A stretch of 64,000 nt of DNA from the NCBI RefSeq assembly GCF_056712565.1, contig NZ_CM160072.1; one strand, 5' to 3'. Position numbers: made by a program. The first letter of the stretch is position 1. Each line of letters begins with the position of its first letter. Below are positions 36,301 through 39,300 of this stretch, piece by piece.

Positions 36301-39300
36301 AACACCACGTCGCGGGCATTGTCCTCTGTCCAGTGAACAGTACCTCAGAAGCCGATTTACAGCGTTATGCCAACAGTTCCACACCCTTATTAATCACGAT
36401 GCGCCCTCTGGATTGGCAACAATTGCCCGTCGATTACGTTGGCGTGGACAGCCACGCAGGTGTACGGGAAGCGACGGAATATCTCATTCAACAAGGGCAC
36501 AGAGATATCGTGTTTATTGGTGGTCTTACGCACCATATGCGTTATCAGGGATACCTTGAGGCGATGAATCACCATGGTTTACAGCCGTGGAGTACTGATG
36601 CTTTTTCGCTGCGTGCTGAACCGACTCAGGCCAACGGCTACCAGTTGATGCAACAGCTGTTGGATATGCCTTCGCCACCCACAGCGGTGATTTGTTATAA
36701 CGATTTAATGGCTTTTGGCGCGGAGTCGGCACTAGGCGAAAGAGGATTATTTGCCGGGGAAGATATTTCGTTGATTGGTAATGATGGCGTGGCGGCTTGT
36801 GCTTACAGTAACCCGCCGTTAACCACAATTGCGGTAGAACCATTGGCTCTGGGGAAACAGGCGGCGCAGCAAATTTTACGGCGTATTGCGCAACCAGACG
36901 CACCGCTCAGCCATTACATCTATCGCCCGACCCTGCAAATTCGCGCTTCCACCGGAAAGCGGGGGCGTTAAATGCTGTAGCGAGAAACTGTTTCTCGCTA
37001 TACTCTCTTGTCCCCCATTCAACAGCAGGTAACACCATTCGTTATGGCAGGCAATAGACCTTTCAACAAACAACAGACTGATAACCGCGAACGCGATCCA
37101 CAAGTTGCCGGGCTGAAAGTGCCTCCGCACTCGATCGAAGCGGAGCAGTCGGTGTTGGGCGGTTTAATGCTGGATAACGAACGCTGGGATGATGTAGCTG
37201 AGCGTGTGGTGGCAGATGATTTTTACACCCGCCCACACCGTCATATCTTTACTGAAATGGCGCGTTTGCAGGAAAGCGGTAGTCCTATCGATCTGATTAC
37301 CCTTGCGGAATCGCTGGAACGCCAGGGGCAACTCGATAGCGTCGGTGGTTTTGCTTATCTGGCAGAGCTGTCAAAAAATACGCCAAGTGCGGCGAACATC
37401 AGTGCATATGCGGATATCGTGCGCGAACGTGCCGTTGTTCGTGAGATGATCTCCGTTGCTAACGAGATTGCCGAAGCTGGTTTTGATCCACAAGGGCGTA
37501 CCAGTGAAGATCTGCTCGACCTTGCTGAATCCCGCGTCTTTAAAATTGCCGAAAGTCGTGCAAACAAAGACGAAGGGCCGAAGAACATCGCCGATGTGCT
37601 CGACGCAACCGTGGCGCGTATTGAGCAGTTGTTTCAGCAGCCACACGATGGCGTTACCGGGGTAAATACCGGTTATGACGATCTCAACAAAAAAACCGCT
37701 GGCTTGCAGCCGTCGGATTTGATCATCGTTGCCGCGCGTCCGTCGATGGGTAAAACGACATTTGCGATGAACCTCGTCGAAAACGCGGCGATGTTGCAGG
37801 ATAAACCGGTGCTTATCTTTTCGCTGGAGATGCCATCAGAACAGATTATGATGCGTTCTCTGGCGTCGCTGTCGCGCGTTGACCAGACTAAAATCCGTAC
37901 CGGGCAGCTCGATGATGAAGACTGGGCACGCATTTCCGGCACCATGGGTATTTTGCTCGAAAAACGCAATATCTATATCGATGATTCCTCCGGCTTGACG
38001 CCAACGGAAGTGCGTTCCCGCGCACGCCGTATTGCCCGTGAACACGGCGGCATCGGGCTTATCATGATCGACTACCTGCAACTGATGCGCGTACCGGCGC
38101 TTTCCGATAACCGTACGCTGGAAATTGCAGAAATCTCCCGCTCGCTGAAAGCACTGGCGAAAGAACTGAACGTGCCGGTGGTGGCGCTGTCCCAGTTGAA
38201 CCGTTCTCTGGAACAACGTGCCGACAAACGCCCGGTCAACTCCGACCTGCGTGAATCTGGCTCTATCGAGCAGGATGCGGACTTGATCATGTTTATCTAT
38301 CGTGATGAGGTGTATCACGAAAACAGTGATTTAAAAGGCATCGCGGAAATTATTATCGGTAAACAACGTAACGGCCCAATCGGGACGGTACGCCTGACCT
38401 TTAACGGTCAATGGTCGCGCTTCGACAACTATGCGGGGCCGCAGTACGACGACGAATAATAATTATTTTATGAATTAGGTAATTAAAGCAAACACTTATC
38501 AAGGAACACTAATGCAAGCGGCAACTGTTGTGATTAACCGCCGCGCTCTGCGACACAACCTGCAACGTCTTCGTGAACTGGCGCCTGCCAGTAAAATGGT
38601 TGCGGTGGTGAAAGCGAACGCTTATGGTCACGGTCTTCTTGAGACCGCGCGAACGCTCCCCGATGCTGACGCCTTTGGCGTAGCCCGTCTCGAAGAAGCT
38701 CTGCGACTGCGTGCGGGGGGAATCACCAAACCTGTACTTTTACTCGAAGGCTTTTTTGATGCCAGAGATCTACCGACGATTTCTGCGCAACATTTTCATA
38801 CCGCCGTGCATAACGAAGAACAGCTGGCTGCGCTGGAAGAGGCTAGCCTGGACGAGCCGGTTACCGTCTGGATGAAACTCGATACCGGTATGCACCGTCT
38901 GGGCGTAAGGCCGGAACAGGCTGAGGCGTTTTATCATCGTCTGACCCAGTGCAAAAACGTTCGTCAGCCGGTGAATATCGTCAGCCATTTTGCGCGCGCG
39001 GATGAACCAAAATGCGGCGCAACCGAGAAGCAACTCGCTATCTTTAATACCTTTTGCGAAGGCAAACCTGGTCAACGTTCCATTGCCGCGTCGGGTGGCA
39101 TTTTACTCTGGCCACAGTCGCATTTTGACTGGGTGCGCCCGGGCATCATTCTTTACGGCGTATCTCCGCTGGAAGATCGCTCCACCGGTGCCGATTTTGG
39201 CTGTCAGCCAGTGATGTCGCTAACCTCCAGCCTGATTGCCGTGCGTGAGCATAAAGCCGGAGAGCCTGTCGGTTATGGTGGAACCTGGGTAAGCGAACGT

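What the first reader, a model, noticed from the sequence alone, without database searches (positions are those of the whole stretch)
36972..37043. Perfect 11-bp inverted repeat at the right edge of the qor-dnaB module, immediately upstream of essential dnaB
tagcgagaaac-t-gtttctcgcta (36976-36998) is a perfect 11/11 inverted repeat starting 5 bp after the LacI-family stop and ending 45 bp before the dnaB start. It is not followed by a U-run, so it is not a canonical intrinsic terminator. It could be a protein-binding site, an RNA stem insulating dnaB from read-through, or a remnant of the insertion junction. The insertion leaves only ~70 bp for the dnaB promoter, so how dnaB is transcribed in this strain deserves a look.
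Basis: seen in the sequence. Interest (0 to 1): 0.4.

Follow-up and report, generated by a model that had tools for sequence, protein, structure and literature searches.

The report
Hairpin palindrome abutting replacement dnaB promoter
A perfect 23-base palindrome sits between an acquired regulator gene and the essential helicase gene dnaB in about 15% of E. coli genomes; it most likely forms an ordinary, leaky end-of-gene hairpin, and the more notable point is that the sequence around it has replaced the usual dnaB promoter.

Summary
The palindrome is real: TAGCGAGAAAC-T-GTTTCTCGCTA. It starts 6 nt after the LacI-family stop and ends 43 nt before the dnaB ATG. Chance does not explain it.

It occurs once per genome, 100% identical, in exactly the 826 of 5426 complete E. 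coli genomes that carry the 7.3-kb qorA-dnaB module. It also occurs in two other Escherichia lineages, one of which has lost the module. A Citrobacter keeps only the outer 8+8 bp, with equal hairpin stability. Copies of the module at other loci (Leminorella, Enterobacter) lack it.

The block 36972-37012 (palindrome, TATACT, CTCTTGTC) is far better conserved than its flanks. It replaces the K-12-type extended -10 promoter.

Best reading (about 0.45): a 3' stem-loop of the regulator transcript with a poor U-tract, acting as a leaky terminator or insulator and packed against a weak replacement dnaB promoter.

The neighbouring regulator's own operator (TTGGAACGATCTAA, 35757-35770) is different. 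I found no covariation, no Rfam match and no flanking repeats. Function is inferred, not shown. Modest interest.

The parts
36978..37000 (.). Perfect palindrome TAGCGAGAAAC-T-GTTTCTCGCTA (11+1+11)
   Evidence: 100% identical and single-copy in 826 of 5426 complete E. coli genomes, absent from the rest.
36976..37002 (+). RNA stem-loop in the sense of the LacI-family gene: 12 pairs (including one G-U) around a 3-nt loop
   Evidence: -14.6 kcal/mol, z = -4.7. The Citrobacter version has 10 pairs and a 7-nt loop at -13.9 kcal/mol. Flagged terminator-like by a lenient scan.
35937..36971 (+). LacI-family regulator gene, last gene of the module; its stop lies 6 nt before the palindrome
   Evidence: Below the cut-off of every NCBIfam equivalog.
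36999..37004 (+). TATACT, the best -10-like hexamer upstream of dnaB; its first two bases are the last two of the right arm
   Evidence: The -10 score is 7.1 bits but the -35 contributes about 0 (CTGTAG or TGTAGC at 18 or 17 bp). The total does not exceed random windows. Invariant in Escherichia and Citrobacter; CATACT in L016.
36972..37012 (+). Conserved block spanning about -39 to +2 of the putative TATACT promoter. It contains the palindrome, and only the inner 7 nt vary.
   Evidence: Escherichia against Citrobacter: 0 mismatches in 34 non-inner positions. The flanks differ at 16 of 60, 12 of 31 and 11 of 60 positions.
37005..37012 (+). CTCTTGTC, the conserved stretch after the -10. G37010 is the candidate transcription start (inferred). 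It also serves as the pyrimidine-rich 'tail' of the hairpin.
   Evidence: Tail score -2.79.
37044..38459 (+). dnaB (replicative helicase). Its first 15 codons or so belong to the divergent haplotype segment.
   Evidence: First 60 nt are 87% identical to K-12, against about 97-100% further on. N-terminus MAGNRPFNKQQTDN versus K-12 MAGNKPFNKQQAEP.
29704..36971 (.). 7.3-kb module between qorA and dnaB: FAD-binding flavoprotein, MFS transporter, enoyl-CoA hydratase, CoA-transferase (all on the minus strand) and the LacI-family regulator (plus strand)
   Evidence: Same module at the same site in Citrobacter sp.. Found elsewhere in Leminorella and Enterobacter.
35757..35770 (.). TTGGAACGATCTAA, a LacI-type operator with a central CG in the module's divergent promoter. 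This is the regulator's probable own site and serves as context.
   Evidence: Conserved in all six aligned divergent promoter regions. No copy of the palindrome half-site lies there.

Best explanation
The palindrome is the DNA form of a stable stem-loop at the 3' end of the LacI-family regulator's transcript, six bases after its stop codon. It marks the boundary between that acquired gene and dnaB, which runs in the same direction. At that boundary it attenuates read-through and/or protects the regulator's mRNA 3' end. Because the U-tract is poor, it works only as a leaky intrinsic terminator.

Its right arm runs straight into the -10 box (TATACT, 36999-37004) of a weak promoter that lacks a recognisable -35. 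In every genome with this haplotype, that promoter has replaced the K-12-type extended -10 dnaB promoter.

Shown here:
- the palindrome and its predicted stability;
- its strict link to the module haplotype;
- loss of the K-12-type promoter;
- conservation of the whole block 36972-37012.

Inferred, not shown:
- that the hairpin forms and stops or stabilises RNA;
- that TATACT is the dnaB promoter in use.
For: - Position and strand fit a gene-end hairpin: 6 nt after the stop of a gene co-directional with dnaB, with a stem of -14.6 kcal/mol.
- K-12-type genomes have qor and dnaB divergent, so they need no boundary element, and they have none.
- The Citrobacter orthologue changes three inner bases on one arm only, yet keeps a 10-pair hairpin of almost equal energy: -13.9 against -14.6 kcal/mol.
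- Copies of the module at other loci also carry a hairpin after the regulator gene, but a different one. Leminorella has AAAGCCTTTTGGCTTT.
- The other perfect short-loop palindromes in the window look like bidirectional terminators.
- The element is single-copy and has no relative in Rfam, phages or plasmids, so it is a local signal.
- The conserved block reaches beyond the stem to cover about -39 to +2 of TATACT. That pattern is what two overlapping signals would give.
- L026 has lost the module but keeps 36972-37043 unchanged, and it still has a small co-directional ORF upstream.
Against: - The tail TACTCTCTTGTC is not a U-tract. The TransTermHP-style score of -2.79 is reached by 12% of random positions, and the lenient scan is not specific. 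Efficient intrinsic termination is therefore doubtful.
- There are no compensatory changes in the stem: 0 of 12 pairs, from only 4 distinct sequences. Conservation is at the sequence level, which suits a DNA site equally well.
- The TATACT promoter scores no better than random sequence because it lacks a -35.
- I could obtain no RNA 5' or 3' end data for a strain with this haplotype.
Confidence: 0.45

Rival explanations
1. The palindrome has no function of its own. It sits in the spacer of a constrained promoter block and persists by hitch-hiking or through mutational maintenance of palindromes.
For: - No covariation in the stem.
- L016 keeps both flanks (TAAATG.CTGTAGC and TCGC.ATACTCTCTTG) but has lost 8 nt of the palindrome core and has no hairpin.
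- The Citrobacter form tolerates loss of the 3 inner pairs.
Against: - The outer 8+8 arm bases show 0 changes between Escherichia and Citrobacter, while neighbouring non-coding sequence differs at 12 of 31 positions.
- Most of these arm bases lie in promoter-spacer positions that are normally free to vary.
- Arms are invariant in three Escherichia lineages about 91-94% identical overall.
- In L016 dnaB is absent, so loss of the palindrome there says little.
Confidence: 0.2
2. The palindrome is an operator. A dimeric transcription factor, either the neighbouring LacI-family regulator or an unidentified one, binds TAGCGAGA-N7-TCTCGCTA across the spacer and -10 of the dnaB promoter and represses or tunes dnaB.
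For: - The site covers about -33 to -11 of the putative promoter, a classic repressor position.
- Conservation is of exact sequence in both outer half-sites with a variable centre.
- The inner core AAAC-T-GTTT loosely resembles LacI-family cores, with an extra central base as in natural lacO1 (my own knowledge).
Against: - The regulator's own conserved operator, TTGGAACG(A/T)TC(C/T)AA, has a central CG and matches the palindrome half-site at only 4 of 7 positions.
- The central positions that LacI-type proteins read are the ones lost in Citrobacter.
- No second copy of the half-site with 1 mismatch or fewer lies near any other promoter of the window, and matches with 2 mismatches or fewer are at chance level.
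- Putting an essential helicase under a catabolic repressor is implausible (inference).
Confidence: 0.15
3. dnaB in this haplotype is transcribed largely by read-through from the regulator gene or from a start upstream of 36976. The hairpin is then an intercistronic or 5'-leader stem-loop that shapes mRNA stability or processing rather than termination.
For: - No convincing sigma-70 promoter exists in the 72-bp spacer.
- There is no U-tract.
- In Escherichia a second outer helix, GGGGGCG 36961-36967 with UGUCCCC 37009-37015, gives a two-tier structure of -30.8 kcal/mol, z = -3.6.
Against: - The outer helix is not conserved in Citrobacter.
- TATACT and the 8 nt after it are invariant in Escherichia and Citrobacter, and nearly so in L016 (CATACT, one further change), as expected for a used promoter.
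- L026 has no intact regulator gene yet keeps the block.
Confidence: 0.15
4. The palindrome is a relic of the insertion event: a recombination or attachment site, or the terminal repeat of a mobile element.
For: It lies at the right edge of a 7.3-kb accessory module.
Against: - No integrase or transposase is annotated among the module's five genes; their family matches are metabolic, transport or regulatory.
- No matching repeat at the left junction: a local alignment score of 10 is reached by 40 of 300 shuffles.
- Module copies at other loci lack the palindrome.
- Divergence between the two haplotypes continues to about 37090, inside dnaB.
- The block is under purifying selection.
Confidence: 0.05

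Closest known systems
Rho-independent (intrinsic) transcription terminators of Enterobacteriaceae
   Same: A stable stem-loop a few bases after a stop codon, on the sense strand, sitting between two co-directional genes that are not obviously one operon.
   Different: It lacks the run of U residues that defines the class. The tail is UACUCUCUUGU, the stem is only about 45% G+C, and termination has not been measured.
Compact terminator-promoter junctions, where a hairpin insulates a downstream promoter from upstream read-through
   Same: The hairpin and a -10 element are packed into 27 bp, and the conserved block spans about -39 to +2 of the candidate promoter.
   Different: Neither signal is canonical. 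The promoter has no recognisable -35 and the terminator has no U-tract. Both activities are inferred.
LacI/GalR-family operators (for example lacO1, the PurR box and Cra boxes)
   Same: Dyad symmetry, an AAAC...GTTT inner core, and proximity to a LacI-family gene.
   Different: It has an odd central base instead of a central CG. It differs from the module's own conserved operator, TTGGAACGATCTAA. Its core is not conserved in Citrobacter.
K-12-type dnaB promoter region (qorA-dnaB spacer)
   Same: Similar distance to the dnaB ATG: the -10 ends 36 nt upstream in K-12 and 39 nt here. Both share the downstream CCCATTC and GGTAAC.CCATTC..ATG leader.
   Different: The K-12 type has a conserved extended -10 (TG-n-TAAAGT or TAATCT) and no palindrome. 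This haplotype has TATACT preceded by the palindrome.

Membership tests
Intrinsic (Rho-independent) terminator | Stable stem-loop just downstream of a stop codon on the sense strand | tested here: met
   12 pairs, -14.6 kcal/mol, z = -4.7, starting 5-7 nt after the stop.
Intrinsic (Rho-independent) terminator | U-rich tract immediately 3' of the stem | tested here: not met
   Tail is TACTCTCTTGTCCCC with no run of 3 or more T. The TransTermHP-style score of -2.79 is reached by 12% of random positions. Only a lenient scan passes it.
Intrinsic (Rho-independent) terminator | Pairing maintained by compensatory change across relatives | tested here: inconclusive
   0 of 12 pairs show a double change. 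Only 4 distinct sequences were available. Hairpin energy is kept in Citrobacter.
Intrinsic (Rho-independent) terminator | RNA 3' ends or reduced read-through at the site | not testable with these tools
   I found no RNA 3'-end or transcription-start data for a strain with this haplotype.
Sigma-70 promoter (for dnaB) | -10 hexamer close to TATAAT | tested here: met
   TATACT at 36999-37004, 7.1 bits, the best -10 in the spacer. Conserved in the aligned Escherichia and Citrobacter sequences; CATACT in L016.
Sigma-70 promoter (for dnaB) | -35 hexamer or an extended -10 TG | tested here: not met
   CTGTAG or TGTAGC matches 2 of 6 and there is no TG. The total of 7.1 bits lies within the random background of 6.0 +/- 2.1. 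The consensus scan finds none.
Sigma-70 promoter (for dnaB) | Mapped transcription start | not testable with these tools
   The Cappable-seq table held was cut before this coordinate, and the other two sources gave nothing for dnaB or were not held.
LacI/GalR-family operator | Even palindrome with a central CG that resembles the regulator's own operator | tested here: not met
   The centre is a single T, or C in L029. The module's operator TTGGAACGATCTAA matches a half-site at 4 of 7 positions.
LacI/GalR-family operator | Central half-site bases conserved in orthologous loci | tested here: not met
   Citrobacter has AAC changed to TGG on the left inner arm.
Repeated extragenic palindromes (REP/BIME, ERIC and similar) | Many copies per genome | tested here: not met
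   One locus per genome in 826 genomes; the two 'places' per genome are the two strands of the same site. None in the other 4600 genomes.
Mobile-element end or attachment site | Matching repeat at the other end of the element, plus a recombinase gene | tested here: not met
   Similarity between left and right junctions is at chance level. No integrase or transposase is annotated among the module's five genes, whose family matches are metabolic, transport or regulatory.
Any Rfam RNA family | Covariance-model match | tested here: not met
   The only hit is a chance-level one at E = 8, elsewhere in the searched region.

The most novel reading that the evidence does not exclude
The palindrome is an operator inside a replacement promoter. 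On this reading, in the E. coli lineage that carries the module (including ST131 and Nissle 1917) and in related Escherichia and Citrobacter, the essential replicative helicase gene dnaB came under the control of an unidentified DNA-binding protein when horizontally acquired sequence overwrote its native promoter.
Probability: 0.12. Interest if true: 0.55.

Novelty: new member of a known kind. Interest (0 to 1): 0.3.

Why it matters
The palindrome itself is probably an ordinary gene-end hairpin. The context is more interesting. In about 15% of complete E. coli genomes the native promoter and the first 15 codons or so of an essential gene, dnaB, have been replaced together with an acquired catabolic module. 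From my own knowledge of the strain names, these include major extraintestinal pathogens and the probiotic Nissle 1917. The replacement control region is compact, conserved and non-canonical.

If dnaB expression or its insulation from the neighbouring regulator differs between lineages, K-12 data on helicase dosage may not transfer. The locus would also be a clean natural example of promoter turnover at an essential gene.

Tried and rejected
- **Genome-contig scan with the LacI-family protein.** I recovered through protein search plus contig look-ups.
- **Transcription start data.** The Cappable-seq table held is cut before 4.26 Mb. The SMRT-Cappable-seq supplements have no dnaB entry. Thomason 2015 is not held. 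Literature searches for a dnaB promoter or start-site maps in uropathogenic strains or Nissle gave nothing usable.
- **Junction repeats.** Similarity between the left and right junctions (AGCGA...CTGTTT) is not significant: 40 of 300 shuffles reach it.
- **Regulon motif.** Half-site matches in the window are at chance level: 20 found against 15.4 expected.
- **Covariation.** None, with too few variants to be informative.
- **Rfam, phage and plasmid searches.** Nothing beyond the same chromosomal locus.
- **Recalled consensus motifs** (LexA, PhoB, TyrR, PurR, Cra, sigma-32, NtrC, DnaA). None fitted. This rests on my own knowledge and was not tested with a tool.
- **Origin of the perfect 11/11 form by quasi-palindrome template switching from a Citrobacter-like 8/8 form.** Rejected as unsupported. 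L016 shares the AGAAA left arm with E. coli, so the long stem is more likely ancestral.

Full report
**1. The observation**

The window reads ...cgt TAA atgctg TAGCGAGAAAC t GTTTCTCGCTA tactctcttgtcccccattcaacagcaggtaacaccattcgtt ATG gca....

- The repeat finder reports arms 36978-36988 and 36990-37000, 11 nt, 100% complementary, with 1 nt between them.
- The stop of the LacI-family gene is 36969-36971. The RefSeq dnaB start maps to 37044. So 6 nt precede the palindrome and 43 nt follow it.
- Perfect inverted repeats of 11 bp or more with loops of 10 nt or less occur at 5 distinct places in the window. Composition-matched shuffles give 0.3.

**2. Where it occurs**

In E. coli:

- The window is 100% identical to E. 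coli ATCC 11775 here.
- A 7.3-kb module lies between qorA and dnaB. It encodes an FAD-binding flavoprotein, an MFS transporter, an enoyl-CoA hydratase, a CoA-transferase and a LacI-family regulator.
- 826 of 5426 complete E. coli genomes carry the junction between the regulator gene and dnaB. The other genomes align only from about 37028 onward, at about 93%.
- A 31-nt query centred on the palindrome finds exactly those 826 genomes, all at 99% identity or more. There are two 'places' each, which are the two strands of one site.
- The element is therefore single-copy and haplotype-specific. It is not a dispersed repeat.
- The module is mentioned in the literature only as five uncharacterised ORFs between qorA and dnaB in 'GR 32' of strain BEN2908 (PMC12928451).

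In K-12 and in relatives without the module:

- The K-12 qorA-dnaB spacer is 82 bp and has no palindrome.
- C. koseri, C. sedlakii, C. amalonaticus and Klebsiella have the K-12-type spacer; it measures 81, 64 and 61 bp in C. koseri, C. sedlakii and Klebsiella (dnaB was not called on the C. amalonaticus contig).
- C. koseri, C. sedlakii and Klebsiella share with K-12 a conserved T.TG.TAA...TTTCGACCCA(T/A)TC motif (C. amalonaticus is more diverged). I read this as an extended -10 promoter, TG-n-TAAAGT or TAATCT.
- A rough position-weight scan makes TCGTCA-17-TG-n-TAAAGT the best K-12 candidate, at 11.2 bits. Random 150-nt windows give 6.0 +/- 2.1.
- In the module haplotype this element is gone.
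- Recognisable homology with K-12 resumes only at CCCATTC (about 37013). It stays patchy until about 37090, which is dnaB codon 15.
The concern about 'only about 70 bp' is unfounded as to length but justified as to content.

In relatives that carry the module:

- **Citrobacter sp.** has the same module at the same qorA-dnaB site, with a regulator 86% identical. Its palindrome reads TAGCGAGA-TGGTGTT-TCTCGCTA. The outer 8+8 bp are intact and three inner bases are changed on the left arm only.
- **L029 and L030** represent an Escherichia lineage at most 91.1% identical to any complete E. coli genome. They have the module, identical arms and a centre changed from T to C.
- **L026** is at most 93.9% identical to E. 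coli. It has lost the module: window positions about 29750-36918 are replaced by 322 bp containing a small ORF. It keeps a decayed remnant of the regulator's 3' end, with 14 of 60 mismatches. Even so, 36972-37043 is unchanged.
- **L016** has a regulator 83% identical. It carries the junction and the first four dnaB codons, followed by unrelated DNA. Eight bases of the palindrome core are missing there and no hairpin forms.
- **Leminorella and Enterobacter-like contigs** carry the module at other loci. The sequence after the regulator gene is unrelated, although it has other hairpins.

The palindrome therefore belongs to the qorA-dnaB-resident version of the module's right end, not to the module core.

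**3. Constraint**

Between Escherichia and Citrobacter, the block 36972-37012 has no mismatch in its 34 non-inner positions. The flanks differ much more:

| Flank | Positions that differ |
|---|---|
| Last 60 nt of the regulator gene | 16 of 60 |
| Rest of the leader | 12 of 31 |
| First 60 nt of dnaB | 11 of 60 |

At about 25% divergence, the chance of 34 unchanged positions is of the order of 1e-4 to 1e-5 (my calculation).

The conserved block runs from about -39 to +2 relative to TATACT (36999-37004). It therefore includes more than the stem.

**4. What it is likely to do**

For an RNA hairpin at the regulator's 3' end:

- The position and strand fit.
- The stem is -14.6 kcal/mol, and -13.9 kcal/mol in Citrobacter despite the inner change.
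- A boundary is needed only where a co-directional gene lies upstream of dnaB.

Against a true intrinsic terminator:

- There is no U-tract. The tail score of -2.79 is reached by 12% of random positions.
- The permissive scan that flags the site is not specific: 2 sites found against 1.5 expected.
- There is no covariation.

For a promoter overlapping the hairpin:

- TATACT is the best -10 in the spacer and is conserved, as are the 8 nt after it.

Against it:

- There is no -35 and the total score is at background.

For an operator:

- The site sits in a classic repressor position, and conservation is of exact sequence in both outer half-sites.

Against the neighbouring regulator as the binder:

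- Its evident operator is TTGGAACG(A/T)TC(C/T)AA at 35757-35770. It has a central CG and is conserved in all six divergent promoter regions. It is unlike the palindrome.
- The palindrome's central bases are not conserved in Citrobacter.

Against a scar or attachment site:

- There is no repeat at the left junction and no recombinase gene is annotated in the module.
- The block is under purifying selection.

I therefore commit, at about 0.45, to a leaky terminator-like 3' hairpin packed against a weak replacement dnaB promoter. The rivals are a neutral passenger (0.20), an operator (0.15), a leader or intercistronic hairpin in a read-through transcript (0.15) and a junction relic (0.05).

**5. 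Comparison with known systems, novelty and score**

- The element resembles an intrinsic terminator but fails that family's U-tract criterion.
- It resembles a LacI-type operator only superficially and fails the tests on the centre and on conservation.
- It is not a REP-type repeat and matches no Rfam family.
- It is best filed as a new, unremarkable member of the class of gene-end hairpins at terminator-promoter junctions.
- The noteworthy point is evolutionary: promoter and N-terminal turnover at an essential gene, linked to an acquired module.
- Interest is 0.3.

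Noticed in passing
window 35757-35770: TTGGAACGATCTAA is a LacI-type operator with a central CG in the divergent promoter between the CoA-transferase and the regulator gene. It is conserved as TTGGA(A/T)CG(A/T)TC(C/T)AA in E. coli, Citrobacter, Leminorella and two Enterobacter-like loci, and is probably the regulator's real binding site.
   Followed up: partly
window 29809-36971; L011, L014, L015, L017: The module (flavoprotein reductase, transporter, enoyl-CoA hydratase, CoA-transferase, LacI-family regulator) reaches no NCBIfam equivalog cut-off, so its substrate is unknown. 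The transporter is swapped: MFS here and in Citrobacter, Nramp-type in Leminorella and in one E. coli genome (L017). The Enterobacter-like versions add a flavodoxin gene, and one lies near an IncFII repA gene.
   Followed up: partly
L026 3509-3960: In this Escherichia-like metagenome contig the module has been deleted and replaced by 322 bp with a small, hydrophobic-looking ORF. A decayed 55-nt remnant of the regulator's 3' end remains, but the palindrome and dnaB leader are untouched.
   Followed up: partly
L016 1258-1431: A related module copy carries the dnaB upstream region plus only the first four dnaB codons (ATGGCTGGGAAT), followed by unrelated DNA and a 214-aa ORF with no family match. 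This suggests the module once moved together with a piece of the dnaB promoter.
   Followed up: no
window 37044-37090: The first 15 codons or so of dnaB differ from K-12 (MAGNRPFNKQQTDN versus MAGNKPFNKQQAEP) and resemble Citrobacter (QQTDA). The first 60 nt are 87% identical, against 97-100% further on. The haplotype boundary therefore lies inside the essential gene.
   Followed up: partly
window 36961-36967 with 37009-37015: GGGGGCG in the last codons of the regulator gene can pair with UGUCCCC after the -10. This encloses the palindrome hairpin in a two-tier structure of -30.8 kcal/mol (z = -3.6). It is present in Escherichia only and not in Citrobacter.
   Followed up: partly
L001 1472-1480 (K-12) and the island-less loci L019, L021, L022: K-12-type qorA-dnaB spacers (61-82 bp) share a conserved TG-n-TAA(A/T)(G/C)T element followed by TTTCGACCCATTC. 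It looks like an extended -10 promoter for dnaB that needs no -35. I could not find a mapped transcription start.
   Followed up: partly
window 6218-6248, 10392-10423, 20925-20948, 61548-61574: These are the four other perfect inverted repeats of 11 bp or more with short loops. At least two (6218-6248 and 20925-20948) have A/T-rich ends, like bidirectional terminators.
   Followed up: no
window about 39614-46400 (L002 11815-18401): Downstream of alr this haplotype carries pnuC, an AAA-family ATPase gene and, after tyrB, a second 2-oxoglutarate dehydrogenase E1/E2 gene pair. These belong to the same strain-specific region, 'GR 32' in PMC12928451.
   Followed up: no
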